A stretch of DNA of 64,000 bases. It comes from the human T2T-CHM13v2.0 reference genome, Homo sapiens. The translations under genes were made by a program, and so were the position numbers. The notes under the pieces were generated by a model. It ran no database searches. It was not told the DNA's origin and was given only the letters and a program-made list of their open reading frames with translations. The stretch spans positions 18,432,001 through 18,496,000 of the forward strand of contig CP086569.2 in the NCBI GenBank assembly GCA_009914755.4, written 5' to 3'. Shown piece after piece: positions 31,608 to 62,499 of this stretch (positions are counted from its first letter, which is position 1; each line of letters begins with the position of its first letter).

Positions 31608-32517
<910 letters not shown>

Positions 32518-33329
32518 GTCCTCCCCCTCCCTCCCTCTTTCCCCCTTTTGTCGCCATGCTTCACAAACTTCCCCTAACTCTGCTCCCACTTTTCCTCTCA
32601 CCTGCGGCCCCAAAGCAACCCGGGACCTCCTCGTGGGGTTCCACCGCTGCAGCACCGCCAGGCAACAGCATCCCACATCCTCCTTCTTGCTGCAGCCCCA
32701 CCAGGTGCCCGGCTCCAGCCGTGGCAGGACGGTATATGTTCCCTGAGGTGACCCGTGTCTTCACGCTCCCGGGACGCCCAGGCAATTCAATTTACTCATC
32801 TGGCACCATGCAATAGTTCAAGCCGGTGGGGGAAGTGGCGGCCAGGGACAGAGGTCCCACAGACACCATCCAAAACCTCTGCTCCTGGACCTATGGGCTG
32901 CTTTCCCCAGGGGAAGGACATTGCCTTCGCCAGTCACGAGGCAATCCGTCTCTGTGCACCCGGATTCCCATTGGCACCGTCTTCGTGTCAACTCCAGTCC
33001 TGAGGACACGAGAGAGACCCAGGCCTCGGCCCGGTCGGCACGCTCTGCGCCAGGGCTCCCACCAGAGGGAAGGACGCACTCTCCAAATCTCGGTGCCCAC
33101 TGCACCAAGAAGATAGGGAGTAGCCAACAAAAGGACCCTATGAAACGCACCCCAAAAGCAAGCAACCAATCCAAGCAAAAATACGTCTCAGGGTTCTGTT
33201 GGTCCTCTTGCATGGGCGGCCTGCCCACCTGTTCCCGCCAGGCTCAAGCACCCTCCACCCTACCCCTGCTGGAAGGAGCCCTGTCTACGAGAGCAGAGAG
33301 CTCCCTCTCCCAGGCTTTAATGCTCTGGC

Positions 33330-33510
33330 TCTCTAGTTCTGTCACCCTCTCTCTATTTCTCTCCTGCTCCCTCCATCTCATGCTCTTTCTGTCACCTTCT
33401 CTCTCTTTCTTTCTCCCTCTCATTCCTGTCTCTCTCTCTCTCTCTAGCTCTCTCTCCCTCAGTTTCTATCTCTCCATCCCTCTTTCCCTTGATCTCCTTC
33501 AAGCTGTCTA
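33330..33510 (+). repeat. Pyrimidine-rich (CT)n/(TC)n low-complexity tract inside 5S unit 1
   Basis: ctctctctatttctctcctgctccctccatctc...tctctctctctctctagctctctctccctc. Confidence 0.8.
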
Positions 33511-33935
33511 TCTGTATCTTTGTGTATCTGTGTGTGTCTCTGTGTGCCCGCGAGCGTGCATCCATGTGTGTCTGTGGGGGTGGGGGTGGGTTTCTTCTTG
33601 GTGCTGGTGAGGTGTGTCTGGCTGTCCATCAGCCTCTCTCTCCCGCAATCAGTCGGCTAGCTCCAGTGGCAGCGCGGGGCAAAGCAGCTCCCCCCACTCA
33701 CTTGGCCATGGGCCATGTCCTTGTCCGGACAAGCGACCCTGTTAGGGACGTTGTAAGAGAAAGGGCCCATGGGGCTAGGCCACCTGTTCACCCTTGAGCA
33801 GCCCTGGCAGCACTGGGTGGGTGAGGAGAGAGGGGGCCTTGCAGGAGGGGCGGCGAGGGAACCAAAACAATCCCTCCGTGGCAAGGAGGACAGAAGGGTA
33901 TCCCTGACTCCTGGGAGCACAAGCTCAGCAAGCCC

Positions 33936-34930
33936 GATGTGGTGGAAGCTTGGGAGTTCATGAGCCTGGGGAAGCCCTGAAGCGTCGGAGGAATGGAGAC
34001 CAACCAGAGAGCCCGAAGTCTGTGCAGCGGATGGACACCTCTGGCGTCCTCACTCAGCAGCAGGGCGGCGCCGAGATGGTCCAGTGCATGGCCTTGTCTG
34101 CTATGGCTGGAGCCCCTTGGAAGCCGGCAGAAGGTGCAGCGCGGTGGCCCACAGTGCTCCGGCGTGGAGGGGGAGAGCAGCCGAGCAGCAGGCGAGGAGT
34201 GGCTTAGAGTTGTCCCGATCCAAGCCGCGTGGCTTTGGAGTGGCGGTAATGCCTGGAGTCTGGCGGGCATGGTGGGCCAGGCTCTTGTGTCAGCCAGGTA
34301 TCACTGCGGGTGTCTAAGGCCTTACCGCCCTGAGACACCTGATCTCTGGCCTGTGACGCTAAGCAGGGTGGGGCCTGGTTCAGTACTTGGAAGAGAGACC
34401 GCCTGGGAATACAAGGTGCTGTAGGCTTTTGGCTTCCCGCTCCCTCTTTCTCCCTTTTGTGCCCTACTTCCCAACCACTCCCTGACTCTGCTACCCATTT
34501 TCCACCTGCCTGCGTCCCCACCGCACACCAGGACCTCCTCGTACACCGCCGGGCAGCAGCATCCCACCTCTTCTGCCTTGCTGCAGCTCCACAAGGTCCC
34601 CAGCTCTAGGCAGGGCGGGGCAGGCCAGCACCAGACCCCAAAGGCGCAGGCCCAGGTTCCCTGCCATGCTGGTTGTCTTCCTGCTCCAGGAAGGCCTAGG
34701 TAATTTAATTCACTCATCTGGCGCCGCCGCAAACGCCCGAGGCTGGGGAAGGGGTGGGCAGGGGCAGAGGGTCCCACAGACGCCAGCCAAGACCTCCTCC
34801 AGAACGCACGGGCTGCTTTTTCCAGGGAAGAACATTGCCTTTGCCAGCTACCAGGGAAACATCCTTGTGAACCCGGATTCCCATGGCCACCAACTTCGTG
34901 TAAACTCCTGTTGTGAGGACACGAGAGACA
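33936..34930 (+). repeat. 5S rDNA-derived repeat unit 2 (truncated after about 1 kb, where the satellite array begins)
   Basis: See unit 1. Homology to unit 1 runs from 33940 through ..gacacgagagacacccaggcctcagg (34915–34940). Confidence 0.7.
34312..34430 (+). pseudogene. 5S rRNA-like gene copy 2 (about 85% identity to canonical 5S; probable pseudogene)
   Basis: gtctaaggccttaccgccctgagacacctgatctctggcctgtgacgctaagcagggtggggcctggttcagtacttggaagagagaccgcctgggaatacaaggtgctgtaggctttt. Upstream gccaggctcttgtgtcagccagg parallels copy 1. It lies 1910 bp downstream of copy 1. Confidence 0.85.
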
Positions 34931-35190
34931 CCCAGGCCTCAGGCAAGGATTCCCTGGCTTGCACCCAGGGTGCCTGTCTCACCCACGGGGGCACCCTAAA
35001 GTGTCAAGAAGGCAGCGGGGGATGGGAGCTGGCTTTAAAGGGGACGTTGAGGCAGTCCGTGGAAAAACTTCTCAGGGAAGACAGTGCATTCCGGGCAGCC
35101 CCTGCGGCGGGCTGGGGGGCCCTGGAGTCCCTGTCTTGCACAAAGGTTGTGTGTCTCGCCCTCAGGGGGCACCCCATAGCAACAACAATT
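34930..35190 (-). repeat. Inverted block 1 of the satellite (about 1.3 monomers in reverse orientation)
   Basis: ccctggcttgcacccagggtgcctgtctcacccacgggggcaccc and gccctggagtccctgtcttgcacaaaggttgtgtgtctcgccctcagggggcacccc are the reverse complement of the monomer anchor. Confidence 0.75.
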
Positions 35191-37604
35191 CCCCTGGGGA
35201 AAAGTACCCCGCTTGAAAGACACGCCCCCTGGGTGCAAGCCAGGGACTCCACGACCACCCCGAGTCCGGCACAGACACTGCCGGGAAGGCACTGTTCTCC
35301 ATGGGATTGTTTTCCCTCCCGACTGCCTCAACGTCTCCTTTCAAGCCTGGCCTCCTGTTCCCTTCCCCCGCAGGTATTCATGCTGCCTTGGGGTGGCCCC
35401 CGTGGGCGAGACTCTTACCCTGGGTGCAAGCCAGGGACTCCATGAAACCCTCGGCCCGGCGCAGGGGCCGCCAGGAAGGCACTGTCGTCCGTGGGAGAAT
35501 CCCAGCCTCGAGGTTGTTTTCCCCGGGCTGCCTCAATGTCCCCCTTGAAGCCTGAAGTGCTGTCCCCTTCCCCCAGGGGACTACTTGCCGCTTTGGGGTG
35601 CACTTAGTGGGAGAGACACGCACCCTGGGAGGAAGCCAGGGACTGCCGGGAAGGAATTGCCATCATGGGAGGAAACCGGCTGGCCGCATTTTTCGCCGTG
35701 CTGCCTCAGCGTCCTCTTTAAAGCCTGGCGTCTTGTTCCCTTCCCTGGGAGGCCTTCTTACCACTTTGGGGTGCCCCTGTGGGAACGACACGCACCATGG
35801 GTGCAAGCCAGGGACTACACGATCCCTCCGGGCCCAGCGCAGGGGTTGCCGGGAAGGCTCTGTCGTGCGTGGGAAGACACCATCCCTCCTCTTTTTTTCC
35901 CGTACTGCTTCAACTATGCCTTTCAACCCTGATGTCCTGTGCCCTTCCCCCGGTGGCCTTCTTGCCTCTTTGTGGTGCGCCCCGTGGGTGAGACATGCAA
36001 GCTGGGTGCAAGCCAGGGACTCCACGCAGCTCCTGGGCCCACCGCAGAGGCTGCCGGGAAGGCAATGTCGTCCATGAGCGGACCCCAGTATCCCCGCTTT
36101 TTTCCCCGGGGCTGCCTGAACGTCCCCCTTCAAGCCTGACGTGCTGTACCCTTCCCCGGGGAACATTCTTTTCGCTTTGGGGTGCCCCCCATGGGGGAGA
36201 CACTCACCCTGGGTGCAAACCAGGGAATCAACAACCATCCCCATGCAGGGCAAAGGGGCTGCCAGAAAGGCACTGTCATCCGTGGGAAGTTTTTACCCCG
36301 GACTGCCTCAACGTCCCCTTTCAAGCCCGGCGTCCCGTTTCCTTCCCCCGGAGGCCTTCTTGAGGCTTTGAGGTGTCCCCCGTGAGTGCGACATGCACCC
36401 TGGGTGCAGCCAGGGACTCCACGACGACCCCGGGCCTGGTGCAGGGACTGCCGGAAAGGCACTGTCGTCTGTGGGACGTCCGCGGCCCGCTGCTTTTTTC
36501 CCCGTGCTACCTCAACGTTCCGTTTCAGGCCTGGCGCCCTCTTCCCTTCCAACAGAGGCCTTCTTGGTGCTTTGGGGTGCTTCCCGTGGAAGCGACACGC
36601 AACCTGGGTGCAAGCCAGCGACTCCAGAACCCCACTGGGCAGGGCGAGAGGCTGCCGCGAAGGCACTGTCGTTCGAAGGACCCTGGCTTACTGCTTATTT
36701 CCCTGGATTGCCTCAAAGTCCCCTTTTAAGCCTAACATCCTGTCCCCTTCCCCCGGGGACCTTCTTGCCTCTTTGGGGTGCCTCCTGAGGGCGAGATGCA
36801 CACTCTTGAGTACAAGCCAGGGACTCTACGACACCGCCAGGACCGGCGCAGGGCTGTCGGGAAGGCACTGTTATCCCTGGGATCACCTCAGCCTCGCCGC
36901 TTTTTTCTCTGGGCTACCTAAAGGTCCCCGTTCAAGGCTGATTTCCTGTTGCCTTCCACTGGGGGACTTTTACTGCTTTGGGGTGCTCACTGTGGGCGCG
37001 ACACGCACCCCAGGTGTAGGCCAGGGACTCCACGACCACCCCGGGCCCGGTGCAGGGGCTGCTGGGCAGACACGGTTGTCCTTGGGTGGACACTGGACCG
37101 CCGCTTTTTTCCGGGACTGCCTCAACTAAACTTTTCAACCCTGGCGTCTGGTACCCTTCCCCCGGGGCCTCCTTGATGCTTTGTGGTGCCACCCCTGGGC
37201 GAGACACACACCCGGGATGCAAGCCAGGGACGCCAAGACCTCCCCGGCCCAGCGAATGGGCAGCCAGGAAGGCACTGTCGTCCGTGGGAGAACCAGCGTC
37301 ACGGTTTTTTACCCTAGGCTACCTCAACGTCCCCCTTCAAGTCTGACGTGCTGTCCCCTTCCCCTGGGGGCCTGTTTGAAGCTTTGGGGTGCCTCCCGTG
37401 GGCGAGACACGCATCCTGGGTGCAAGACAGGGACTCCACGCTCCCCCAGGGCCCTACGCATGGGCTGCCAGGAAGGCACTGTCATCCATGGGAGGAACCC
37501 GGCTAGCCTCTTTTCTCTCCGTGCTGCCTCAGCGTCCCCATTAAAGCCTGTCTTCCTGTTCCGTTCCCCCGGAGGCCTACTTGCGACTTTGGGGTGCAAC
37601 CCCT

Positions 37605-38090
37605 TTGCCGGACACGGAGGGGTTGTTGAGTCCCAGTCTTACACCCAGGGGCCCATGGGGGGCACCCCAAAGCAGCGAGTAGCTTCTCAGGGGAAGGAGA
37701 CAGCACGTCAGGTTCGAAGGTGGACGTTGAGGCAGCCTGGGGAATAAAGAGGGGATGCTGGGGTTCTGCCATGGATAACACGGTCTTCCAGGCAGCCTCT
37801 GCGGTGGGTCTGGGAATATCGTGGAGTCCCTGGCTTGCACGCAAGGTGCCTGTCTCGCCCACAGGGGGCACCACAAAGCGGCAAGAAGGCCACCGTGGGA
37901 AGGATATGGGACGCCAGGGTTGAAAGGGATAGCCGAGTCAGTCCGGGGAAAAACGCCGCGGACTAGGGTCGTCTGAGGGCAGACAGTGCCTTGCCGGCAG
38001 CCCCTATGTTGGGCCGGGGTGGTCTTGGAGTCCCTGGCTTGTACCGAGGGTGCTGGTCGCGCCCATGGGGGCACCCCATGTCTAAGCGCG
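37605..38090 (-). repeat. Inverted block 2 of the satellite (about 2.3 monomers in reverse orientation), bounded by head-to-head and tail-to-tail palindromic junctions
   Basis: 37590–37680: ..ctttggggtgcaacccc | tttgccggacacgg..gggggcaccccaaagc. 38040–38110: ggagtccctggcttgtaccgagggtgctggtcgcgcccatgggggcacccc | atgtctaagcgcgacacgcacgctgggtgcaagtgagggactcc. Confidence 0.8.
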
Positions 38091-40025
38091 ACACGCACGC
38101 TGGGTGCAAGTGAGGGACTCCACGATTCCCCGGGGCCAGGCGCAGGGGCTGCCAGGAACGCAATGTCATCCATGGGATGACCCCGGCCAGCCGCTTTTCC
38201 TCCAGGGCAGCCTCAATGTCTCATTTAAAGCCTAGCTGCCTGTTCCCTTTCCCCGGGGGCCTTCTTTCCGCTTTGGGGTGCCCCCCATGGGGAAGAAGCG
38301 TATCCTGTGTGCAAGACAAGGACTCCACGACTCCCCCGGGCCCAGCGTAGGGGCTGCCGGGAAGGCACGACTGCCGGGAAGGCACTATCGTCCGTGGGAG
38401 GACCCCGGCCACCCGCGTTTTTCTCCGTGCCGCCTCAACGTTCCATTTCAAGCCTGGCGTCATGTTTCCTTCCCCTAAAGTCCTTCTTGCCTCTGGGGTG
38501 CCTCCCGTGGAAGAGAAGCGCACTCTAGGTGCAAGCCAGGGACTCAACAACACACACGGGTTCAGCGCAGGGGCTGCTGGGAAGACACTGTCGTCTGTGG
38601 GACTACCCTAGCCTCGCCGCTGTTTTCCCCAGGCTGCGTGAACGTATCCTTCAAGCCTGACATGCTGTCCCCTTCTCCCGCGGGCCTTTTTGCCGCTTTA
38701 GGGTGCTCCGCGTGGGCGCGACACGCAGCCTGGGTGCGAGCTAGGGACTCCACGTCCCCCACCCCCATGTTTCGGCGCAGCGGAGACCGGGAAGGCACTG
38801 TCAACCGTGCGGTGACTCTGACCCGCCGCTTTTTTCCCCGTGCTGCCTCATCGTCCGGTTTCAAGCCTGGCGTCCTGTTCCATTCTTTCAGAGGTTTTCT
38901 TGCCGCTTTGGGGTGCCTCCCCCGTGGGCACGACACATACCCTGGGTGCAAGCCAGGGACTACACGACTTCTCCGGGCGTGATGCAGAGGCTGCCATGAA
39001 GGCACAGTCCTCCGTGGAAAGTTTTTCCCGGTACTGCCTCAACGTCCCCTTTCGTTTCACTGGAGGCCTTCTTGCCACTTTGGGGCGCCCAGCGTGGGCG
39101 CAACACGCACATTAGCTGCAAGCCAGGGACTCCACGACCACCCCAAGCCCGGCGCAGGGTCTGCCGGGAAGGGACTGTCATCGGTGGGAGGACTGCGGCC
39201 CACCGCTTTTTTCCCCGTGCTGCCTCAATGTCCCCTTTCAAGCCTGGCATCATGTTCCCTTCCCCCACAAGCATTCTTGCCACTTTGGGGTTCCCCCGTG
39301 GGTGCGACACTCACCCTGGGTGCAAGCTAGGAACTCCATGACCGTCCCGGGCCAGGCACACGGGCTGGGGAAACGCACGGTTGTCTGTGGGAGTAAACCG
39401 GCCTGCTGCTTTTTCCCTCGTGCTTCCTCAACGTCCCCTTTCAAGCCTGGCGTCCTGTTTCGTTTTCCCGCAGGCCTACTTGCCGCTTTGGCGTGTCCCC
39501 ACTAGATGCGACACGCACCCTGGGTGCAAGCCAGGGACTTCACGACTTCCCCTGGCGCGGTGTTGGGGGGGCTACTGAAAAGGCACTGTAGTGCGCGGGA
39601 AGTTTTTCCCCAGCGTGCCTCAACGTCGCCTTACAGGCCTGGCATCCTGTTTCCTTCCCCGTGGGCCTTCTGGCCGCTTTGGGGTGTCCCTCTTCGGCCA
39701 GACACCCATCCTGGGTGCAAGCCTGGGACTCCGCGACCACCCGGTCCCGGCGCAGGGGCTGATGTTAAGTAAGGCACTGTCGTTCATGGTAGGACCCCAG
39801 CCTCGCCGCTTCTTTCCTCGGACTAACTCAACGTCCCCCTTCAAGCTTGATGTGCTGTCCCTTTCCCCCCGCCCCGGGGGCCTTCTTGTCGCTTTGGGGA
39901 GCCCCAGTGGGCGAGACACGCACCCTGGGTGCAAGCCAGGGACTCCACCATTTTCCCGGGCCAGGTGCACGCGCTGCCGGGAAGGCACTGTTGTTCATGG
40001 GAAGACCCCAGCCTCTACGCTGCAC

Positions 40026-40160
40026 CCAGGGAAGTCGTGGAGTCCCTGGCTTGCATCCAGGCTGAGTGTCGCGCCCACGGGGGGCACCCCAAAGCGGCAA
40101 AGAAGGCCTCCGGGGGAAGGAAGTTGGATGCCAGGCTTGTAAGGAGAGATCAACGGGGAA
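40026..40160 (-). repeat. Inverted block 3: in-situ inversion of about 135 bp within one monomer
   Basis: ..cctctacgctg | cacccagggaagtcgtggagtccctggcttgcatcc...ggggaaaaaagcggcg | aagccagggactcaatgac. The breakpoints sit in short cgccgc/gcggcg inverted motifs. Confidence 0.75.
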
Positions 40161-41894
40161 AAAAGCGGCGAAGCCAGGGACTCAATGACACAAGCAGGCC
40201 TGGAACAGGGGCTTCCGGGAAGGCCCTGCCGTCTGTGGGACAACCCCAGCCTCGCTGCTTTTATCCCCAGGCTGCCTCAACTTTCCCGTTCAGGCCTGAT
40301 GTGCTGTCCCCTTCCCCGAGGTCCTTCTTGCAGCTTTGTGGTGCTACCCATGGGTGAGACACGCACCCTGGGTGCAAGCCAGGGACTCCACGACCCTCCT
40401 CCCGACACATACACCGTCCCGATGCAGGGGCTGCGAGAAAGGCACTGTCATCCATGGGACGCCCACGGCTCGCCGCTTTTTTCCTCATGCTGTCTGAACT
40501 TCCTCTTTCAAGCTTGGCATCCTGTTTCTTTCCACCTATGGCCTACTTGCCGCTTGGAGGCACCCCCCCACCCCCCCAACTGTGGACGAGTCACGCACCC
40601 TGGATGCAAGCCAGGGACTCTACGACTTCCCTGGTTCTGGCACAGAGGCTGCTGGGAAGGCTCTGTCCTCCGTGGGAAGTTTTTTCCTGGACTGCCTCAA
40701 CGTCCCCTTTCAAGCCTTGCGTCCTGTTCCCTTCCCCTGGGGACCTTCTTGACGCTTTGGGGTGCCCCCCATGGGCAAGACACGTCCGCTGGGTGGCAGC
40801 AAGGTACTCCACGACCACCGGGCACTTGACTCGGGGGCTGCAGGAAAGGCACTATCGTCCGTGGGAGGACTCCAGCCTTACCACTTTTTTCCTCGGGCTG
40901 CCTCAATGTCCTCCTTCACGAAGACTGACATGCTCTCCCCTTCCTTCCGGGGCTTTCTTGACGTTTTGGGTTATCCCCGTGGGCGAGAAACGCACCCTGA
41001 GTGCACACCAGGTATCCACGGTCCCTCGGTTCCGGCGCAGAGGCTGCTGGGAAGACACTGTCGTCCGTGGGAGGATCCCTGCCCACCGCTTTTTCCCTGT
41101 GCTGCCTCAGAAGTCTTCTTTCAAGCCTGGCATCTTGTTCCCTTCCTTTAGGGGCTTTCGTGTTGCTTTGAGATGCCCCCCTTGGGCGTGACCCGCAGCT
41201 GGGTGCAAGGCAGAAGCTCCACCACTCGCCTGGCCCGGAGCAGGGTCTGCCAGGAAGGCACTGTTGCCATGGGAAGTTTTTCCTTGTACTGTCTCAACGT
41301 CCCCTTTCAAGCCTGGAGCTCTGTTCCCGTCCCCCGGGGGTCTTCTTGCCGCTTTGAAGTGCCCCCCATAGGCCTGACACGGACCCTGGGTGCAAGACAG
41401 GGACTCCACGACCACCCCGGCCCCAACACAGGGGCTGCCAGGAAGGCACTGCCATCTGTTGAACGACCCCGGCCCGCCTTTTTTTTTTTTTTTCCGTGTT
41501 GCCTCAATGTCCCCTATTAAGATTGGCGTCCTGTTCCCTTCCCCCAGAGGCCTTCTTGCCACTTTGGGGTGTCCCCATGAGCACGGCATGCCCCCTGGGT
41601 GCAAGTCAAGGACTCCACGACTTCCCAAATCCCGGCCCAGGGTCGGCTGGACAGGCACTGTTTTCCGTGGGAAGTTTTTTCCCGGACTGCCTCATCTTCC
41701 CCTTTAAAGGCTGTCCCTCCTGTTCCTTTCCCTCGGGGGTTTTCTTGACGCTTTCTGGTGCCCCTCGTGGGGGTGACACGCACCCTGGGTGTAAGCCAGG
41801 GACTGCACGACCCCCGCGGTTTCTGTTCTTATTTATGGTAAAAGTAGGGAACTCTGCTTATGCACATCAACGGAATCATTATTATACGCAGACG

Positions 41895-42062
41895 ATTTGG
41901 ACGTCGAAGGAGAGAAACCTTGGTGAGGGGTAGGGGATAAAACAGGAGGGGGAAGGGAAGGAGGCACAGTAGTTCACTCTGGAGTGTTTTCTAGCCTGGG
42001 GTGAGTGGGGCGACACGGAGGGCAACTCAGGAAACAAGCTGATTCCAGAAAAGACACCGGGC
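41895..42062 (+). repeat. Low-copy direct repeat, copy 1 (about 170 bp, about 90% identical to 45372–45548)
   Basis: cgaaggagagaaaccttggtgaggggtaggggataaaacaggagggggaagggaaggaggcacagtagttcactctggagtgttttctagcctggggtgagtggggcgacacggagggcaactcaggaaacaagctgattccagaaaagacaccg. Confidence 0.75.
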
Positions 42063-42135
42063 ATGATGGCGAGCGTCTGCAGTCCCAGCTACCCGGTGGA
42101 GGTGGGCGGGGGAGGCAGAAGAATCGCTTGAACCT
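42057..42135 (+). mobile_element. Alu right-arm fragment
   Basis: gggcatgatggcgagcgtctgcagtcccagctacccggtggaggtgggcgggggaggcagaagaatcgcttgaacc. Confidence 0.6.
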
Positions 42136-44289
42136 CATTGGCTCACCTTTCGAATTACCAGCGAAGGCTTTCTCACCAAGTTTTTGTCACACTCTTTCCC
42201 CACCAGTTACCCCTTCCTGAAGATTCGCTCATGGACCCCTGGGGAAGATAGTGGTCTGCCTTATGACCAAAAGACTGGAAAATTTTGAGTGCTTTCTATC
42301 AGGGCCGTTGCCTGGCATGCATGCACTCACCCCCAAAGTCCCGCTGTTTATCCACCTTTCTCTCTGGGGCAAAAGGCCTCTCCGAGGCCGACACAACACG
42401 ATAGTACACAGAATCTTACCGCACTCGCTCCTGCGTCGTGGGCGCACTTGGCAGAGTGAAACAAGGAACTTGGCGCTCAACAGAGGAGGCAGCATCTCTT
42501 ATCGAGTGGGAGGGACCTGCCTCACTCATCCGCCTCGCCCCGCTCAACGACCTCTTCAGGATGCACTTGCAAACACCGTGGTGGCGGTTATACGAGAGGC
42601 CACTTGGGGTTGGCACAACCCGCCACCATTTTGTCTCGGGCAGTCTGGAGCACTCCTGGATCACCACAAAGGCCCTGGTCGTGTCAACCCTCTCGCATCC
42701 CAGAAAGGGCAGCATGATGTTTGGTAGGGACATGCCCCATGGCCCCGGAGAGGTGCAGTGTCCACCCGCAAGGCAACAACCACAGGAAGCCAGAGCAAAG
42801 GTGCCCGCTGTGTCAGAGGACCCCACCAATCTTCTTGAAGTCACGAGGCTCAAGGCGTGAGGGCAGCGAGGTCACCGCAAATTCCCTGCCCCATGCCTCC
42901 CAACACACTACCCGTGAGTGGGGAAGAGAGACAAGGGGCCCGACAAGCAGAAGAAGAAGAACTCTTCCATTAACTGTGTATTTCCATCCTTTGCTTCTCG
43001 TGGCTTACTCCCAGCCTGGGAGAGCGTAAAGTCACCACATCCATCGTGAAAAGCCCAATAATGGGCGGTGGTTGAGCTGGGGTCAGTCTTGAAGAAACTG
43101 ATGAGCATAACAGCCCAGCCAGGCTCACTCCGGGATAGGGACAGCAGACAATTTAAGGTGGAATGCCTGACATTCACAGCGAAGAGCCAACAGAGTGGGG
43201 TTGTTCTGACCACCCTGTGCCCGCAGCCGGGAGCACACTGGTCACGGGAGCCCGAGCTGCCTTCCCTGCCAGGGTCAAAGGCCCAGAAACCTGGGGCACC
43301 ACGGACAGTTATGACACTAGGATGCGTGAGAGCAGGCACACAGGTCCCAGCAATCAGCTAAAACTGGAACAGGGCCGGTTAGCTGGGTTACCAGTATACC
43401 AGAGCTTCACACGCATCTAGAGGCCCAATGTAATTGCCAGGCAGCGTGTCAGCAACAACCTGGTGGCCCAAAATGTCGACTCAGAGTGAAAGATATACCT
43501 TGCCTGGTGGAGGGGTGTCGAGTCAGTGACCACACCACCTGAGCAGAAACGCGTGACCTGGACATCTTTCCCAAAAAAAGGCCACCATGGCAGCCAGACA
43601 CGGAACACCCAGGGCCCTCTGGTTGACCCCAGGACACACACAGGAGCAGCACTGGGCCAGGGACAAACTCCTGGTTACCCGTACAATGCAGGGGCTGGCC
43701 CATTTTTCCAGAGCTAGACTGGGAGTTATTTTTGGCTGGCCCCTAGCATGACTGGATCACATGAGGGACCAAAGCCTGGCCAGGTGCCACCTCTTGGACC
43801 ACATGCATGCTCAGGGACCGCTCTCCAACTCTGCATGGGGACTTCAAAAAAAAGATCAGGGCAGAGGGACTAGGGCTTGGCAGGTGCATCAGACCTGCAC
43901 TGGCCTGCCACTGGGCCGGGAAGGGCATCCCCAGCCACCAGCGCCATGCCCAATACGTCCTTGTGGATCTCGGGCCAAGCCTCAGGAGTTGTGGCATGCT
44001 GTTCGACCAGCCAGGGCAGCCCCACACTGCCCTGGGGCACGGAAGCACCGCGACAGCCTCCCCCAGCAAAGCCCTGGACTGCCAGCTCTGACTCACAAGT
44101 GACGCGCCAGAGTCCCAGATGGCAGGGCAGCCCATGACTGGGAAACCCAAACCATGAGTCGAAGTCTTTTTGAGGCCGAAAACGCAGCCCCTCCTCCCCA
44201 ACTTCACAGAAACCGTTCTCCAAACGTGTCTCTGCATAGACTGCGACTGAGTCAAAAGACAACCCGTGGCGCATGAGAGTTTGAAGATG

Positions 44290-45102
<813 letters not shown>

Positions 45103-45548: not shown

Positions 45549-46225
45549 TCATAGTGTTGCCATCCCTGCTTTGAAAGGTGTGAAGTGCATGCTGCTTCCT
45601 CCACACTCATTCAGTTAATCCTGAGAAATGTCTTTTAGTCCCAAACGCCTGACATCTACCTGCTTTCACAACATCTGGGGAGAATCAGAAAAGTCCCCAC
45701 TAAAGAAAAGGCCTAGGGTGGAACTGCCGTCTGTAAAACCCAGGCAGAAGAGTCCACGCGGGTCAAACACACAAAGAATAGGAAGCAACTGATGAAGAAG
45801 ATCAACAATCTGGCCCAGCCAGAATCTCCAGAGGTTTTCTAGGCAACGATGGAGGGGATGAACGGATGGAGGTAGGGCGGGCCTCTGAGGGTTGGGGTAG
45901 GACTGAGGGGAGCAGAGAGAAGACACACTCACCCCTTACCATGGGCGGGCGGCCACGGCATCCTGTGAGCCTCCTAGACTTCAAAAACGGTGACAGCTAG
46001 ATGACACGAGACGACAACGGATGGAAGTGTCAGCCCGGCGCCCTTTCAGGAGCTCCCAACAACTAATCCACCACAGCCCTTGCGGGGGAAGAAGCACCAT
46101 GGCTCGGGAAAACATGGAGAAACACATGTGCCTATGCACGTGCACACGCACACCATATCCCACAATATAGACACGTTTATACCGTGATAATGAGAGAGCC
46201 CATTTCTAGTGCAAAAGAAGCAGTC

Positions 46226-48589: not shown

Positions 48590-49181
<592 letters not shown>

Positions 49182-49982
49182 TGTATATTCATTTTTTTAA
49201 CTGATCAAAGAACAATCAGAACCACTCATCAGGGTGGCAATTCCCTTGGCAACAAGGGAGGGAGAAACTTGGAGGTGGGGGTGGGGGCAGTGGAGAAGAC
49301 ACAGCTGCCTTGGGCTGTGCCCAGGTGCCATGAGCTTTCTTCCTCCTTGAGGCCTCGGTTTTCAGAGTAACAATGGCTGCTAGGTGATGCCCATTAGGTG
49401 AATAGGGTGGCATATGCCAATGAGAGTGTCAGCCCGCAATGAATTGGCATCACCCGGAGTGGGGAAAGGAGGGGAAGGATGGAAGTCCCCACAGTACACT
49501 GGGTCACAGCACCCTCGCAGGCAGTCCCCATAACTAATCAACCAGGGCCCCTGGGGGGGGGACACAGCCTAAGTCCCCACCCATCAGATCATCTGGAACT
49601 TCCATCCAAATACCGACTGGAAATTCTCTCAGTCAAGCTCCAAACCTAAAAGAATCACTGCCACACCCACCAGGACTAACACAACTTTTAAAAGAATCAT
49701 TTCTGTGTTTTAGGTGCATCCGTGTATTTCTGTACAACAAAATTATTTATTTTAAATGTTACTAGTTTTTTGCTTCTTACGTGTACAGTCTCATGATAGA
49801 TAGACAAGGGGACTCTTCAGTCCAGAGTCCATGAGGCCAGAAGCTGACATCCTCAGTTCTTATTCAGAATGAATTTAAACAAGCCAGCCAAGCGCCCTGC
49901 CATGAAACTCCTGGAAAGACAAGCGATTAAGAAAAGAAAAGAAAAACAAAGTAAAAAACAAACAAACAAACAAAAAACAATG

Positions 49983-50130
49983 CCGTCAGGAGCAGTAGCT
50001 CATGCCTTTAATCCCCGCACTTTGGGAGCCTGAGAGCGGGTGGATTCCTTGATTCCAGGCAATCAAGACCAGCCTTGGCAACATGGTGAAACCTCATCTC
50101 TTCAAAAATACAAAAATTAGCTGGCTTCAT
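49983..50130 (+). mobile_element. Alu left-monomer fragment
   Basis: gtcaggagcagtagctcatgcctttaatccccgcactttgggagcctgagagcgggtggattccttgattccaggcaatcaagaccagccttggcaacatggtgaaacctcatctc. Confidence 0.7.
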
Positions 50131-50261
50131 AATTTGGACTCAAAATTAATAAATAAATAGTTTGAAATTTAAAATGTAAAAATATCTTAATTGCTGTATT
50201 CTGTTATTTTTGCATCCTATCGTGAGAAGGACATAATATAGGTATTATCTGTCTCTCTGTT

Positions 50262-50516
50262 TGCAACAGGGTCTCGCTCTGTCTGTAGCCCAGGATGGAG
50301 TGCAGTGACATCATCATGGCTCACTGCAGCCTCAACCACCCCAGGGTCAGGTGATTCTCCCACTTCAGCCTCCTGAGTAGCTAAGACCCCAGGCATGCAC
50401 CTCAGGTTTTGGCTGTGTTGTCCAAGGCTTGTCTCGAGCTCCCAGGCTCAAGAGATCCTGCCGCCTTGGCCTCCCAAAGTGTTGGGGTTTCAGGCTTGAG
50501 TCGCCGCACCCAGCCT
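50262..50516 (-). mobile_element. Old Alu (AluJ-like), antisense
   Basis: ..gggtctcgctctgtctgtagcccaggatggagtgcagtgacatcatcatggctcactgcagcctcaaccacc...cctcccaaagtgttggggtttcaggcttgagtcgccgcacccagcc. Confidence 0.8.
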
Positions 50517-51091
50517 GACTTAATACATCTGGTCTCACTACGTCCTGACTACATGCCCTTGAAGAACTCAAGAGAGTTAGCAAGAGACTTTCAGCATTCT
50601 CTCCATAAACCAGTGAGGTGGATGGCGGCTGAGTGTCCTGGGCTCCTGTGGTTTTAGGTGGCCATGCGTAGAGGATAGATTTCAAATGTTTCCAGAGAGG
50701 TGGGAGCCACAGTCATTCGGGGCATCCAAGCTTGGGATACAGTTTCTGACAGCATCTTAAGGGCCAGGAAGGGCCAGGATCTGCCAAGGCTGGTGTTCCA
50801 CGGTGGGGACAATGGAACCCAAGGTAGAGGGAGCCATCCATCCACACTGAGCTCCAGCCCTAGACCCCACCATGCAGATTAAGTCAGAAGGAACAGTCCT
50901 TCCTCCTACACGCCACATCCCTCCACTCAACTTGGGAGCAGATCTGTTTTCCAAACATGAGGTGACTCTCTGTTTGAAATGAATCACAAGGGGCCCAGCT
51001 TTCTTGAGTCGGCAGGATAAAGAAGTCATTCTGTGACATAGAATGAGATATGCCTCGAATCTAGACTCTCCAGTTAAAACCAATGATGGTG

Positions 51092-51895: not shown

Positions 51896-52329
51896 TAGTA
51901 AATAAATAAGTGAACGAATATATGTAAAAAGAAAAATGCAAGGAAATGGCGGAACTCGGGAAGGCTCCCCTCATTCCTAAAGACCAGAGCAGAAAAACAG
52001 GACCATCAAGTTCAGACACAGGCCATTTTGAATCTGTTGTCACCATGCTCAATTGGTGCCAAAGAAGGGTAGGCTTCTGTGCCACCCATCTGTCATCACC
52101 ACCCTTGTCAAATATAATTGCAGGGTCACGACTGCACAGAGATCTCTCAACCCACTGAATGCATCCGTATTTTTATGAGCCCCGTTGGGAGAATAAACAG
52201 GATATTTAGAAAAGTACTCATCGTGCGTTATTTGGTCTCCCATGTCTCTTGTGAAACCAAACAAATTTATGGGCCATTTTTTTTTCTTTCCAGCACTTGA
52301 CCATCCATACAGTACCTAAATAAAAGAAG

Positions 52330-52700
52330 AATGAATGCATTTTATGAAACAAGGAGAAAAACAACGAAGCGAAAGTCTCAGAGGCTTGTGATACACAGGG
52401 GTATACAGAATGAGGAGACTTCCAGAATCCAAACAAAGACAGACGGAGGGATGGGAGGAAACGAATTGAGAAAAGAGACACACAAAAAGATGAAGAAAAA
52501 TAAATGCAAAGAAAAAGAGACAGAGATGTAAAGGGAAGAAAGATAAAGAAAATAGAAAGACAGAGAAACAGAAAAAGAGAATAAGAAATGACAGAAAGAA
52601 GGGAGGAAGAAAAAGAGAGAGAAGAAAGAGAAAGAAAAGAAAGAAAATGAAAGAAAGAAAGAGGAAGAAAAAAGAAAAATAAAGGAAATAAAAAAGAGAG
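52330..52700. repeat. GA/A-rich low-complexity block (patchy similarity to 44290–44530)
   Basis: Dominated by agaaag/gagaaa motifs. The ORF-track ORFs here are compositional artefacts. Confidence 0.7.
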
Positions 52701-52704
52701 AAGT

Positions 52705-53640: not shown

Positions 53641-53879
53641 AAAAAAGAAAAGAAGAATTAGAAGGAGAAGAAGTAAACATAAAACAACAGCAACTTCAGT
53701 GTGTAGAAAGGGGAGTAAGAAAAGTAAAAGGAAAAAGAAAAACAAAATGAAGAGCAGCTGAAAATACTGTGGAAACAGTTGGAGAGGAAGAAATGACGTG
53801 GTGAAAGAGCAGCCTCTAGTGGATGCAGGTGGTAGTGCTGCTGACCAGAGTTACCCGTTCTACCTTAACAATCCCAAGT

Positions 53880-54480
53880 TGACGGTCAAGTCCAGCGCTC
53901 GCCGATGACATCTTATGGACCCAGGGCTCGCGGAAGGACCCAGTTGGAACTTTATCACACCAAGCCGGCCCACCTTTGCTGCCATCTAACTCCGCCGACC
54001 TGCCCGCAGTTCCCCACTCTCCGCTGGTTGACCGGGGCAGCGGAGAGAGGAGGAAAGCACAAAGGCAGTGACTGGTTCATATCCCATCGCCGCGCGCCTG
54101 GGGTGGGGAGAGGGGCCGTGACCCCATCGGCCACCACTGGGCACGCGTGAACACTACTCGGACAGGAACCGCAGGGGCACACCCTCGGACAACCACTCCT
54201 GAGTCATTCTCACCAGGCTCGGTGAATCCAATCTCAGCCCCTGGAGGAGTTCCCAGCGGGGTGCGAGGAGGAGGTGGAATCGGAGAGGTGGAAGGAGGAG
54301 CAGGGGAGCCACCTCTACCTCAGCAACCCCTGGCGCGGCACCTTGGAAAGCCCGAGGGTGGGGACGTGAGCCTCCCAATGCACAGCGGGCGCCGATGAGC
54401 TCTCGCGAGAGACACCCACTGCGTGATCCGGGGCTCAGGGGTGGGTGGGCATGAGCGGGCCAGGGAAGAGGTTCTCGGGA
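53880..54480. promoter_or_regulatory. CpG-island-like GC-rich block (dense retained CpGs), function unknown
   Basis: Many CpGs, e.g. gctcgcggaagg, ctccgccgacctgcccgcag, catcgccgcgcgcctgggg, agcgggcgccgatgagctctcgcgagag, in contrast to the CpG-depleted surroundings. Confidence 0.4.
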
Positions 54481-54574
54481 ACAGGAGAAAGGAAGGAAGG
54501 TATATGTCAAGGGCTGAATTACACAGGACACACCACATCACACACCACATCACCAGGTCCTCCGCACACGGGTG

Positions 54575-55185
54575 CAGAGAGCCTTGTGTGGAGGTCTGAC
54601 TTTCAATAGATAGCAGCGAGGGAGCTGCTCTGCTCCATGGAAAACCCTGACCCAGAAGCAGGACGTCTGCGAATAGTTTAGCATCAGGTTCCCCACAAAC
54701 ACGTTATGTGATGGGTCAGGGGGTGACCGCCTTTCTGGCAGCAGCCCGTTTCCCAGGATGGGGGTTTCTCTGCACCGGATCCCGGTTTCCGGAGCACGGC
54801 AGGACATGCGCCCAGCGCGGGGCGGAGCGGCACACCGGAGGGGACTGCAGAAGACTGCCTACCCGAGGCCAACAAAGGTTCCGTGGCGCTGCCTTATCAT
54901 TCCTCATGGGCGGGATTCTTAGAGTCCTTCAGTCCTAATCCCGCTTATAGTAGCTTTACCCCATTGGCTCCTCAGACAAGGACATACACCAAATGTCTGA
55001 ACCTGTGATTTCTCTACTAATGAGCAGGATTACCATGGGAACAACACATGGGCAACAACACATGGGGAACACACGCAGTAAAACTAACCTGTCTCACATG
55101 GGTCTAACCATAATGCTTTCCAGGGCATGCGCACCGCTCTCAGGTGAATCCATTCCAGTCTGCCTTGTCCTTCGCAAAGAAAAGA
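54575..55185 (-). pseudogene. 28S rRNA 3'-terminal fragment (last about 600 nt of 28S), reverse orientation, heavily CpG-decayed (rDNA-derived relic)
   Basis: Plus-strand ggtctgactttcaatagatagcagcgagggagctgctctgctccatggaaaaccctgacccagaagcaggacgtctgcgaatagtttagcatcaggttccccacaaacacg...gcctttctggcagcagcccgtttcccaggatg...ggcgggattcttagagtccttcagtcctaatcccgcttatagtagctttaccccattggctcctcagacaaggacatacaccaaatgtctgaacctg...aaaactaacctgtctcac is the reverse complement of the 28S 3' end (..GTGAGACAGGTTAGTTTT...CAGGTTCAGACATTTGGTGTATGTGCTTGGCTGAGGAGCCAATGGGG...GGGGAACCTGGCGCTAAACCATTCGTAGACGACCTGCTTCTGGGTCGGGGTTTCGTACGTAGCAGAGCAGCTCCCTCGCTGCGATCTATTGAAAGTCAGCCC), with many CG to TG/CA changes. Confidence 0.8.
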
Positions 55186-55195
55186 GAGCTCTGCA

Positions 55196-55590
55196 GGGGC
55201 GGTGGCTCATGCCTGTAATCCCAGCAATTTGGGAGGTTGAGGAGGGCCGATCATCTGAGATCAGGAGTTCAAGATCAGCTTGGCCAACATAGTGAAACCC
55301 TGTCTCTATAAAAATACAAAAATTAGCCGGGCATGATGGCGGGTGCCTGTAATCCCAGCTACCCAGGAGGCTGAAGTGGGAGAATCGCTTGAACCCGGGG
55401 AGGCGGATGCCTCCCGCTTGAACCCGGCAGGCGCACATGCCACCATGCTGGGCTAATTTTTGTATTTTTAGTAGAAACAGGGTTTCACCATGTTGGCCAG
55501 GCTGGTTTTGAACTCCTGACCTCAAGCAATCTGCCTGCGTTAGCCTCCCAAAGTGTTGGGATTACAGGCGTGAGCCACCGCACCCAGCGT
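55196..55590. mobile_element. Fused inverted Alu pair: sense Alu (55196–55400, 3'-truncated) joined to antisense Alu (55400–55590) through a recombinant junction
   Basis: ggggcggtggctcatgcctgtaatcccagcaatttgggagg...ggagaatcgcttgaacccggggaggcgga | tgcctcccgcttgaacccggcaggcgcacatgccaccatgctgggctaatttttgtatttttagtagaaacagggtttcacc...gggattacaggcgtgagccaccgcacccagc. Confidence 0.8.
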
Positions 55591-55662
55591 ATGTGTATAG
55601 AGCTCCTCGAGAGGAAAGCCTCTATTATTACCATTGCAACAGTAGAAAAAGTAAAGCTTTTT

Positions 55663-55955
55663 TTTTTTCTTTTGAGTAAGAGTTTCACTCTTGTTGCCCA
55701 GAATGCAGTGCAATGGCCTGATCTCAGCTTACTGAAACCTCTGCCTCCCAGGTTCAAGCTATTCTCCGGCGTTGGCCTCTCAGGAAGGTGGGATTACAGG
55801 CATGTGCCACCACACCTGGCTAATTTTGTATTTTTAGGAGAGACAGAGTTTCACCATGTTGGTCAGGCTATTCTCGAACTCCTGACCTCAGGTGATACAC
55901 CTGCCTCGGTCTCCCAAAATGCTGGGATCACAGGCATGAGCCACTGTGTCTAGCT
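55663..55955 (-). mobile_element. Alu SINE, antisense
   Basis: T-run, then gagtaagagtttcactcttgttgcccagaatgcagtgcaatggc...gggatcacaggcatgagccactgtgtctagc. Confidence 0.9.
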
Positions 55956-55984
55956 TTTTTTTCTTTTCTTTTTTTTTGAAATAG

Positions 55985-56316
55985 TGTCTCCATCTATTTC
56001 CTAGGCTGGAACACAGGGACATAATCCTAGTTCACTGCAGCATCAAACTCCTAGAGCTCAAGCAATCCTCCAGTCTCAGCCTCCCAAGGGCTAGGATTAT
56101 AGGTGCACGCCACTACACCTAGGTATTTTTTGTTTTTTGTTTTTTTTCTTTTTCTACACAAAAATGTCTCAACATGGATTTTTTTTTTTTCTTTTTTGGC
56201 AGAGATGCTGTCTCACTATGTTGCCCAGGGTGGTCTCAAACTCCCCGCCTCAAACCATCCTTCCACCTAAGCCTCTATAAGTGCTAGGATTACAGGCATG
56301 AGCCACTGAACCCAGC
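55985..56316 (-). mobile_element. Two partial Alus, antisense (55985–56125 and 56198–56316)
   Basis: ..gtctccatctatttcctaggctggaacacagggacataatcctagttcactgcagc..ggattataggtgcacgccactacacctagg and ..gctgtctcactatgttgcccagggtggtctcaaactcc..ggattacaggcatgagccactgaacccagcc. Confidence 0.7.
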
Positions 56317-56365
56317 CCCAATAATTTTTATTTTATTTTATTTTATTTTATTTTATTTTTTTTTT

Positions 56366-56661
<296 letters not shown>

Positions 56662-58477: not shown

Positions 58478-58834
<357 letters not shown>

Positions 58835-62065: not shown

Positions 62066-62430
<365 letters not shown>

Positions 62431-62499
62431 TCAGATGGCTGCATCACCTTGGCCCACGGAGGGGGTTTTCTTTTCTTTTTTTCTCTTCCAAGGTAATGA

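What the first reader, a model, noticed from the sequence alone, without database searches (positions are those of the whole stretch)
53800..55190. 28S rRNA 3'-end relic in reverse orientation next to a CpG-rich block, in the same window as 5S-derived units
54575–55185 aligns to the last 600 nt or so of 28S rRNA (reverse complement) with extensive CpG to TpG/CpA decay, so it is old. Finding 45S-rDNA-derived and 5S-rDNA-derived sequence within 20 kb is unusual, since the two gene families live on different chromosomes. If the adjacent lower-coordinate sequence (53800–54575, a CpG-island-like block) matches the rDNA 3'ETS/IGS, the fragment is a genomic rDNA piece of the kind seen near acrocentric or pericentromeric junctions rather than a retro-copy. 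If so, the Alu-rich stretch 44.5–54.5 kb could be decayed intergenic spacer.
Basis: partly seen in the sequence, partly recalled or inferred. Interest (0 to 1): 0.55.

Follow-up and report, generated by a model that had tools for sequence, protein, structure and literature searches.

The report
Decayed genomic rDNA fragment, not retrocopy
The 28S-like stretch is one end of a 13-kb, long-dead DNA-level copy of part of a human ribosomal RNA gene repeat (28S end, terminator region, spacer, promoter, start of the next unit), a known kind of genomic fossil with no sign of function.

Summary
Rfam and BLAST against real human rDNA (contaminant contigs I retrieved) place the last ~540 nt of 28S at 54582-55107 on the minus strand. 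One correction: 55115-55192 is 28S nt 2622-2700, so about 1.8 kb of 28S is deleted internally.

The interpretation also holds. There is no A-tail. Homology continues into the 3'ETS (53999-54364, alignment score 104 against 31±4 for shuffles), including a decayed Sal-box T1. It then runs colinearly through unique spacer segments (about 79% identity, E down to 1e-178), the T0 terminator and the promoter (Rfam pRNA hit), and about 1.5 kb of 5'ETS, ending near 42070. The relic is therefore about 13 kb (42.07-55.19 kb) and was copied as DNA.

It shares an AluJ with the active spacer. It lacks a later AluSx and AluY, and it has the empty target site of the ape-specific cdc27 retro-pseudogene. A diverged colinear copy exists in another genome, probably a monkey. 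I estimate the relic is tens of millions of years old.

It abuts a 204-bp GC-rich satellite and two equally decayed tandem 5S units. Degraded rDNA units that include spacer are already described in human (Robicheau 2017). This is an ordinary new member of that kind; the 5S neighbourhood is a curiosity. The chromosome could not be determined.

The parts
55115..55192 (-). 28S rRNA relic, nt 2622-2700. This is the upstream end of the relic and abuts an AluS starting at 55196.
   Evidence: BLASTN to L001, 79.7% over 79 nt, E 1.7e-12. No further homology to the transcribed unit in 55193-64000.
54582..55107 (-). 28S rRNA relic, nt 4532-5063 of 5070 (the 3' end). Contains a 14-bp x2.8 tandem duplication at 55034-55071.
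   Evidence: Rfam RF02543, 82.3 bits. BLASTN 78.5% over 493 nt, E 4e-115. TRF.
53999..54581 (-). Includes the decayed Sal-box T1 at about 54021-54036.
   Evidence: Smith-Waterman to human 3'ETS +78..+426: score 104 against shuffles 30.8±3.7. Controls score 31-43. The first 120 nt match only weakly (32 against 23±4).
53883..53925 (-). Possible relic of a further Sal-box (R-repeat) unit. Weak evidence.
   Evidence: 30 of 43 matches to human +646..+688, colinear, but the score of 35 against 27.6±3.5 is not significant on its own.
52537..52702 (-). (CTTT)n-type microsatellite in the position of the post-terminator microsatellite of the human spacer.
   Evidence: TRF. BLASTN to the (CTTT)n at the end of L009. 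Low-complexity sequence, so only positional support.
51019..51086 (-). IGS -10984..-10917. Ends in the unoccupied target site (51019-51034) of the cdc27 retro-pseudogene.
   Evidence: BLASTN 85%. The target-site duplication is present twice in the human IGS, flanking a poly-T plus the cdc27 copy, and once here.
50178..51034 (-). IGS -7124..-6330, including an AluJo (50266-50515) shared with the active human spacer.
   Evidence: A single HSP (79.1% over 612 nt, E 4e-152) crosses the boundary between unique sequence and the Alu.
49194..50159 (-). IGS -5632..-4710, including a shared Alu-monomer-like piece at 49989-50124. The human AluSx and AluY at -6316..-5637 are absent between 50178 and 50159.
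   Evidence: BLASTN 78.7% over 745 nt, E 1e-178, and 69.8% over 189 nt.
48597..49180 (-). Two AluS elements in the same order and orientation as human IGS Alus at -4505..-3844. Possibly orthologous.
   Evidence: Position and orientation only. Identity between the copies is no higher than expected for independent insertions.
45654..45856 (-). IGS -3604..-3394.
   Evidence: BLASTN 79.1% over 211 nt, E 3e-46.
43904..44484 (-). IGS -1336..-544.
   Evidence: BLASTN 70.4% over 402 nt (E 3e-52) and 74.5% over 212 nt (E 2e-30).
43454..43870 (-). Promoter region relic: T0 terminator (43612-43629), UCE and core. The position equivalent to the transcription start is 43453.
   Evidence: Rfam pRNA RF01518 at 43501-43590, 39.1 bits (gathering score 34). 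Alignment to the human promoter. T0 motif GGGTCAACCAG.
42068..43453 (-). 5'ETS relic, +1 to about +1527. The downstream end of the relic.
   Evidence: BLASTN -420..+1093, 66% over 1542 nt, E 4e-102. Smith-Waterman extension to +1527: score 139 against 30.5±3.6.
41906..42134 (-). Junction filler: a 154-bp, 94%-identical copy of 45392-45545 plus a 78-nt internal Alu fragment.
   Evidence: Absent from the colinear copy L114.
34945..41810 (+). Neighbour: GC-rich ~204-bp satellite, about 33 units, with short inverted stretches.
   Evidence: TRF and repeat families. Consensus is 72% GC; units are 75-86% identical to it; no similarity to rDNA or to the 5S units.
32029..34940 (+). Neighbour: two tandem decayed 5S rDNA-type units (genes at 32402-32514 and 34312-34427).
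   Evidence: Rfam 5S, 53-54 bits. The units are 68.7% identical over ~1 kb including both flanks. The genes are 81-82% identical to human 5S.

Best explanation
The 28S-like stretch is the upstream end of a ~13.1-kb non-functional fossil on the minus strand (55192 down to about 42070). The fossil was copied as DNA from a ribosomal RNA gene array.

What it contains. It spans one inter-unit junction: 28S (nt 2622-2700, then 4532-5070), 3'ETS with Sal-box T1, a shortened intergenic spacer, the T0 terminator, the UCE/core promoter, and the first ~1.5 kb of the next unit's 5'ETS.

What happened to it. It left the homogenising arrays in an early anthropoid ancestor. My estimate is roughly 40-60 Myr ago, and this is inferred. 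The bracket is: after an AluJ had entered the spacer, but before an AluSx, an AluY and the ape-specific cdc27 retro-pseudogene did. It has since decayed neutrally through CpG loss, deletions (1.8 kb of 28S and most of the distal spacer), Alu insertions and a small templated patch.

Function. It cannot make rRNA. It lacks 18S, 5.8S and half of 28S, and the promoter relic faces a satellite.

Shown: identity, extent, colinearity, DNA-level origin, relative dating by insertions, and the existence of a diverged colinear copy elsewhere.
Inferred: absolute age, ectopic transfer rather than in-situ array death, and absence of function.
For: The reference is real human rDNA.
- Contaminant contigs L001 and L009 carry 28S plus 1 kb of 3'ETS.
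- L060, L051 and L075 carry 11.4 kb of spacer, the promoter and 10 kb downstream. L060 and L051 are 99.3% identical over 13.6 kb.
- These contigs contain 18S, 5.8S and 28S and the cdc27 pseudogene known from the ape spacer.

Colinear minus-strand matches run from 28S to 5'ETS +1527. Independent curated models, Rfam LSU and pRNA, hit the two ends. T1 and T0 motifs are present.

There is no poly(A) at the 28S end.

Decay is uniform. Non-CpG identity is 0.91-0.94 in the 28S cores and the core promoter, with no conserved outlier.

Dating by insertions.
- A single HSP crosses into a shared AluJo.
- The human AluSx and AluY at -6316..-5637 are precisely absent.
- The cdc27 target-site duplication is present once here and twice in the human spacer.
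- The cdc27 copy is in apes but not monkeys (PMC6281188).

An old copy exists elsewhere. L114 carries the same junction from satellite to 5'ETS, promoter and spacer. It is 85-87% identical to the window but only 70% to canonical rDNA.

The window is human. Contigs from human oral and gut metagenomes are 100% identical to it over up to 6.4 kb.

The kind is already described (PMC5381670).
Against: - The 3'ETS match is only 55% identical. Its first 120 nt and the R-repeat part are not individually significant.
- My reference lacks about 18 kb of spacer (+1 kb to -11.4 kb), so 51.1-53.9 kb is assigned by position only.
- Orthology of the two AluS elements is unproven.
- Absolute age rests on rough rate assumptions.
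- The host of L114 is unknown, so it could be an old paralogue rather than an orthologue.
- Lack of function is inferred from structure and even decay, not measured.
Confidence: 0.9

Rival explanations
1. Vestige of an rDNA array (an extinct nucleolar organiser) that once sat at this locus. Only one unit junction survives after deletions. The neighbouring satellite would be the old array border, much as the ACRO1 satellite borders the proximal junction of today's arrays.
For: - The relic spans a unit-to-unit junction and ends against a tandem satellite inside the 5'ETS.
- The same satellite/5'ETS junction is kept in L114.
- Robicheau et al. consider former arrays as one possible origin of such relics.
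Against: - Less than one unit is present.
- No trace of 18S, ITS or the 5' half of 28S appears anywhere in the 64 kb.
- The left 31 kb is ordinary AT-rich DNA.
- Nothing distinguishes this reading from ectopic transfer of a single fragment.
Confidence: 0.2
2. Processed rRNA retro-copy: reverse-transcribed 28S inserted by L1 machinery.
For: Isolated LSU-rRNA fragments are common in the human genome. About 8% of 1-Mb bins have a 45S BLAST hit (PMC5865718).
Against: - No A-tail at the 28S 3' end.
- Homology continues through non-transcribed spacer, T0 and the promoter into the next 5'ETS.
Confidence: 0.01
3. The 5S units, the satellite and the 45S fragment arrived together as one composite. This could be by capture of several extrachromosomal circles or fragments at one break, or by duplication of an older mosaic.
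For: - All three are GC-rich and contiguous (32.0-55.2 kb).
- They show similar decay. Non-CpG identity of the 5S genes is 0.88-0.93; that of the 28S core is 0.88-0.94.
- The satellite-45S junction is ancient.
- 5S rDNA and satellites are known to form circles in human cells (PMC3225859, title only).
Against: - There is no evidence that the 5S part is present in L114.
- No target-site duplication or empty site has been seen for the block.
- Equal decay is also expected for separate events of similar age.
Confidence: 0.3
4. The relic retains a regulatory role, for example as a CpG-island promoter, a source of pRNA-like RNA, or a nucleolar tethering element.
For: - The pRNA model scores above gathering here (39.1 bits) and 77.6 bits in L114.
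- CpG o/e is still 0.5-0.6.
Against: - Identity is even along the relic. The core promoter (non-CpG 0.93) is no better kept than the 28S cores.
- Most core mismatches are CpG transitions.
- The residual CpG level is explained by a starting o/e of about 1.1 at 67-78% GC.
Confidence: 0.05

Closest known systems
Highly degraded, near-full-length rDNA units including IGS outside the arrays (HSA20 pericentromere, HSA2 vestigial centromere, HSA21; Robicheau et al. 2017, PMC5381670)
   Same: Both are DNA-level copies with coding and spacer parts in canonical order, pseudogenic, and not explicable by reverse transcription.
   Different: - This copy is shorter (~13 kb, less than one unit).
- It is more decayed (~78% identity). 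It is uncertain whether it would have been found by that study's megablast search (28-bp seeds).
- Its left 31 kb holds no satellite. A 204-bp satellite abuts its 5'ETS end.
- Its chromosomal position is unknown.
rDNA pseudogenes at the distal and proximal junctions of the acrocentric arrays (Floutsakou 2013, as analysed in PMC5381670)
   Same: Both are truncated rDNA units abutting non-rDNA tandem repeats.
   Different: - Junction copies differ from canonical by only 3-28 variants per kb. This relic differs by more than 200 per kb.
- TRF found no tandem array other than the 204-bp satellite and short simple repeats. By my recollection, DJ/PJ carry 138-bp, 147-bp and CER arrays.
rRNA-derived retro-copies and the 28S-derived SINE (PMC4994717, seen only as a title)
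   Same: Both contain a 28S 3' fragment.
   Different: Retro-copies carry no spacer, terminator or promoter sequence. This relic does.
Linked (L-type) 5S-45S rDNA units of yeast and some plants
   Same: 5S-derived and 45S-derived sequence lie within a few kb of each other.
   Different: - Here both are dead relics separated by a satellite.
- The 5S units are antisense to the 45S relic.
- Tight linkage of functional 5S and 45S is not known in animals (PMC5203791).

Membership tests
Degraded genomic rDNA unit fragment (rDNA pseudogene with IGS) | Significant homology to the rRNA coding region | tested here: met
   Rfam LSU, 82.3 bits. BLASTN E 4e-115 to human 28S.
Degraded genomic rDNA unit fragment (rDNA pseudogene with IGS) | Homology continues colinearly into non-transcribed spacer and the promoter | tested here: met
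   3'ETS. Unique IGS blocks with E down to 1e-178, promoter and 5'ETS, all on the minus strand and in order.
Degraded genomic rDNA unit fragment (rDNA pseudogene with IGS) | Pseudogenic: truncated and diverged beyond the variation seen within arrays | tested here: met
   Lacks 18S, 5.8S and 28S nt 1-2621 and 2701-4531. About 21% divergence.
Processed rRNA retro-pseudogene | Ends at the mature 3' terminus with an A-rich tail or target-site duplication; no spacer sequence | tested here: not met
   No A-tail at 54578-54581. 3'ETS and IGS follow.
DJ/PJ junction rDNA copy of an active array | Near-canonical identity (3-28 variants per kb) | tested here: not met
   78-79% identity in 28S and in unique IGS, compared.
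DJ/PJ junction rDNA copy of an active array | Adjacent DJ or PJ sequence on an acrocentric short arm | not testable with these tools
   No DJ/PJ reference or genome map was available. TRF finds only a 204-bp array.
Functional rDNA unit | Complete 47S transcription unit behind the promoter | tested here: not met
   The 5'ETS relic stops at about +1527 against a satellite.
pRNA (Rfam RF01518) | Sequence and structure match above gathering score | tested here: met
   39.1 bits against a gathering score of 34, at 43501-43590 on the minus strand. This reflects promoter ancestry, not a demonstrated RNA.
pRNA (Rfam RF01518) | Transcribed from an active spacer promoter and bound by NoRC | not testable with these tools
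   No expression data available.
CpG island (Gardiner-Garden and Frommer criteria, from my own knowledge) | At least 200 bp, GC at least 0.5, CpG o/e at least 0.6 | tested here: inconclusive
   53800-54575: GC 0.617, o/e 0.596. 54000-54500: GC 0.653, o/e 0.608. Borderline, and explained as residue of a 3'ETS whose o/e was 1.13.

The most novel reading that the evidence does not exclude
The 23-kb GC-rich block (two 5S units, a 204-bp satellite, and the 45S junction fragment) is a single block of one age. It would be a fossil of physically linked 5S and 45S rDNA, or of a mixed dead organiser, in an anthropoid ancestor. It might be related to the flank of today's 1q42 5S array, which is reported to have a ~20-kb self-similar block and an L1 just upstream.
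Probability: 0.08. Interest if true: 0.6.

Novelty: new member of a known kind. Interest (0 to 1): 0.3.

Why it matters
The 28S piece is not a retro-copy. It is part of a spacer-containing rDNA fossil whose true extent is 13 kb, not 0.6 kb.
- Such fossils freeze old states of the otherwise homogenised spacer. Here that state predates the cdc27 copy, an AluSx and an AluY, so the fossil can help order events in rDNA spacer evolution.
- For annotation, it explains a CpG-rich block and an Rfam pRNA hit that might otherwise be read as a promoter or a gene.
- It is also a possible source of mismapped rDNA reads.
- The adjacency to 5S relics and a satellite is uncommon but has no demonstrated meaning.

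Tried and rejected
- Two scans of viral contigs for rDNA patterns found nothing.
- BLASTN alone did not detect the 3'ETS. A transition-aware Smith-Waterman alignment with shuffles did.
- The R-repeat region (+421..+960) and the first 120 nt of the 3'ETS are not individually significant.
- I searched for more of the transcription unit to the right of 55192 and found none.
- I tested whether the 204-bp satellite derives from rDNA or from the 5S spacer. It shows no similarity.
- Its resemblance to gamma satellite in period and GC content is only a recollection. I could not check it.
- I looked for unusual conservation of the core promoter and found none.
- Pfam found nothing in the long ORFs. The 344-aa ORF is an L1 ORF2 fragment by my own recognition of its translation, and it is not on record in the contig index.
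- I tried to place the window on a chromosome through the literature and through contig look-ups. I could establish only 'human'.
- Orthology of the two AluS elements at 48.6-49.2 kb was considered but not accepted. Their mutual identity is no higher than expected for independent insertions.
- I ran no further search on recovering the true 5S rDNA unit.
Full report
**What is at the coordinates**

Rfam's eukaryotic LSU model matches 54578-55046 on the minus strand (82.3 bits, E 1e-17). The match covers model positions 3006-3399 of 3401, so it runs to the very 3' end of 28S.

To compare with real sequence I scanned the bacterial genome collection for the 28S 3' terminus. This recovered human rDNA as contaminant contigs. 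L001 holds all of 28S (5070 nt) plus 980 nt downstream. L009 holds 1010 nt downstream, ending in the (CTTT)n microsatellite.

BLASTN of L001 against the window gives three pieces:
- 28S nt 4572-5063 = 55049-54582 (78.5% over 493 nt, E 4e-115)
- 28S nt 4532-4561 = 55107-55078
- 28S nt 2622-2700 = 55192-55115 (80%, E 2e-12)

About 1.83 kb is deleted, and there is a 14-bp tandem duplication at 55034-55071. An Alu starts at 55196. Nothing from the transcription unit lies to the right of it.

**CpG decay and the CpG-rich block**

Of 58 reference CpGs in the 28S 3' part, 20 survive, 21 are TG or CA, and 17 are otherwise changed. Non-CpG identity is 88.5%.

53800-54575 has GC 0.617 and CpG o/e 0.596, against 0.14-0.18 in the window's flanks. 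The human 3'ETS it descends from has GC 0.78 and o/e 1.13. The block is a half-decayed remnant, not evidence of a protected island.

**Does homology pass the 28S 3' end?**

Yes. There is no A-rich tail. I used a local alignment that penalises transitions less than transversions. It aligns human 3'ETS +78..+426 to 54364-53999 with score 104. Two hundred dinucleotide shuffles give 30.8±3.7 (maximum 49), and other GC-rich parts of the window score 31-43. The first Sal-box terminator (GGGTCGACCAGCAG) aligns to CGGTCAACCAGCGG at about 54021-54036.

The first 120 nt and the R-repeat region match only weakly (z about 2), although they are colinear.

**The rest of the unit**

Rfam also reported a pRNA (rDNA promoter RNA) match at 43501-43590 on the minus strand, above gathering score. 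A metagenome scan for the human core promoter returned 93 contigs. From L060 (11.4 kb upstream) and L075 (10 kb downstream) I built a reference. L060 and L051 agree at 99.3% over 13.6 kb.

All matches are on the minus strand and in canonical order:

| Human rDNA (relative to TSS) | Window | Identity / E |
|---|---|---|
| IGS -10984..-10917 | 51086-51019 | 85% |
| -7124..-6530 | 51034-50447 | 79%, E 4e-152 |
| -6529..-6330 | 50357-50178 | 72.5% |
| -5433..-4710 | 49925-49194 | 78.7%, E 1e-178 |
| -3604..-3394 | 45856-45654 | 79% |
| -1336..-942 | 44484-44120 | 70% |
| -754..-544 | 44112-43904 | 74.5% |
| -420..+1093 | 43870-42418 | 66% over 1542 nt, E 4e-102 |

A further alignment extends the 5'ETS to about +1527 at about 42068 (score 139 against 30.5±3.6). 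The T0 terminator survives as GGGTCAACCAG at 43612-43629. The transcription start corresponds to 43453.

The relic therefore spans 55192 down to about 42070. In order it contains part of 28S, the 3'ETS, a spacer shortened from ~30 kb to ~11 kb, the promoter, and the start of the next unit. Non-transcribed spacer and a promoter cannot come from reverse-transcribed rRNA, so the copy was made at the DNA level.

**Age**

- One HSP runs from unique spacer into an AluJo (50266-50515) that the active human spacer also has. A monomer-like Alu piece at 49989-50124 is shared in the same way.
- The human AluSx and AluY at -6316..-5637 are precisely absent. 50178 to 50159 bridges -6330 to -5632.
- The human reference carries the cdc27 processed pseudogene at -9182..-7252 (tblastn with a recalled CDC27 sequence), and the window has no trace of it.
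- In human the pseudogene insertion is flanked by a ~15-nt duplication, (c)ACAGAgaGACTTCTTT, with the poly-T on one side. The window has that sequence once, at about 51019-51034. This is an unoccupied target site.
- Agrawal and Ganley report the cdc27 copy in apes but not monkeys (PMC6281188).

The relic therefore left the arrays after an AluJ insertion and before an AluSx, an AluY and the ape-stem cdc27 insertion. Non-CpG divergence of 6-9% in parts that the active genes keep constant (28S cores, core promoter) fits tens of millions of years. I estimate about 40-60 Myr, which is inferred.

Identity is even along the relic. The core promoter is no better preserved than the 28S cores, so there is no sign of constraint.

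**Species and other copies**

An ORF from the window (34666-35445) occurs exactly in contigs from human oral and gut metagenomes. Those contigs are 100% identical to the window over up to 6406 nt. The window is human.

A protein search with a satellite ORF found eight relatives. One, from JGI contig L114, sits in a colinear copy of the same composite. That copy has the satellite, the same junction (…TATACGCAGA…), the 5'ETS relic, the promoter relic (pRNA 77.6 bits) and the spacer relic.

L114 is 85-87% identical to window 42128-44548 (non-CpG 92%) but only 70% identical to canonical rDNA. It lacks the window's AluY at 44549-44863 and has an AluS of its own. Its marker ORF was seen in one sample only, whereas human ORFs were seen in 7-26 contigs. 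It is therefore probably an orthologue in a non-human primate, though an old paralogue is not excluded. Either way, the satellite-rDNA junction is ancient.

**Neighbourhood**

- *Junction filler.* Below the 5'ETS end lies a 154-bp, 94%-identical copy of 45392-45545 plus an Alu fragment (41906-42134). It is absent from L114 and looks like a later templated insertion.
- *Satellite.* Next comes a GC-rich ~204-bp satellite at 34945-41810. It has no similarity to rDNA or to the 5S units. A second all-satellite locus of at least 6.5 kb exists in human.
- *5S units.* At 32029-34940 there are two tandem 5S units, 68.7% identical to each other over ~1 kb including both flanks. Their genes are 81-82% identical to human 5S, with non-CpG identity 0.88-0.93, the same decay as 28S.

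The 5S and 45S relics are therefore ~7 kb apart and about equally old. Whether they arrived together is unknown.

rDNA-like hits are not rare. About 8% of 1-Mb bins have a 45S hit and about 15% have a 5S hit (PMC5865718). Spacer-bearing copies of both kinds side by side are uncommon, however, and functional linkage is not known in animals (PMC5203791).

That paper also describes a ~20-kb self-similar block and an L1 just upstream of the 1q42 5S array. I could not test whether this window, or the second satellite locus, is that region.

**Comparison with what is known, and verdict**

Degraded rDNA units that include spacer, lie away from the arrays and cannot be explained by retroposition are described for HSA20, HSA2 and HSA21 (PMC5381670). 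This relic meets every defining feature of that kind. It fails the tests for a retro-copy, for a DJ/PJ junction copy (78% identity against more than 97%), and for a functional unit.

The feature is a new but ordinary member of a known kind. Its modest extra value is as a dated snapshot of the spacer before the cdc27 insertion. The unexplained 5S/satellite neighbourhood is the only part worth a further look.

Noticed in passing
window 34945-41810: GC-rich (~62%; consensus 72%) ~204-bp tandem satellite of about 33 units, with short inverted stretches at 34945-35200, ~37820-38080 and ~40040-40095. It is unrelated to rDNA or to the 5S units. A second all-satellite human locus of at least 6.5 kb, 72-77% identical, exists (L110-L113, L117). 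I could not name the family.
   Followed up: partly
window 32029-34940: Two tandem 5S rDNA-type units sharing ~370 nt upstream and ~510 nt downstream of the gene (68.7% identical to each other). The second unit is cut at 34940 by inverted satellite units. The genes are decayed to the same degree as the 28S relic.
   Followed up: partly
window 41906-42134: A 154-bp patch with sharp ends, 94% identical to 45392-45545, lies next to a 78-nt internal Alu fragment exactly at the satellite/5'ETS junction. It is absent from the colinear copy L114, so it looks like templated filler from a later repair event.
   Followed up: yes
window 51019-51034: Unoccupied target site of the cdc27 processed pseudogene that all ape rDNA spacers carry. 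The ~15-nt target-site duplication is present once here and twice in the human spacer.
   Followed up: yes
L114 (JGI 3300032031, Ga0326364_1265811) 1-6529: Colinear copy of satellite, 5'ETS, promoter and spacer relic, 85-87% identical to the window. Its pRNA match is stronger (77.6 bits). It lacks the window's AluY at 44549-44863. The host organism is unknown.
   Followed up: partly
window 55034-55071: A 14-bp unit (CATGGGAACAACA-like) repeated 2.8 times inside the 28S relic.
   Followed up: no
window 14416-15450 (-): An open 344-aa ORF that is the C-terminal part of L1 ORF2 (recognised from its translation; no Pfam hit). The left 31 kb of the window is ordinary AT-rich, L1-bearing DNA.
   Followed up: partly
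window, many sites (e.g. 31740-31791, 55472-55588, 59545-59596): The sub-threshold Rfam matches to mir-1268, mir-3135, mir-1285 and Metazoa_SRP that I checked against my Alu map of 41-57 kb lie in Alu elements and are not genes. The rest look the same but were not checked individually.
   Followed up: yes
window 47030-47164 and 51900-52034: A 135-nt direct repeat (77% identical) within the spacer relic, each copy just after an Alu. Its origin was not examined.
   Followed up: no
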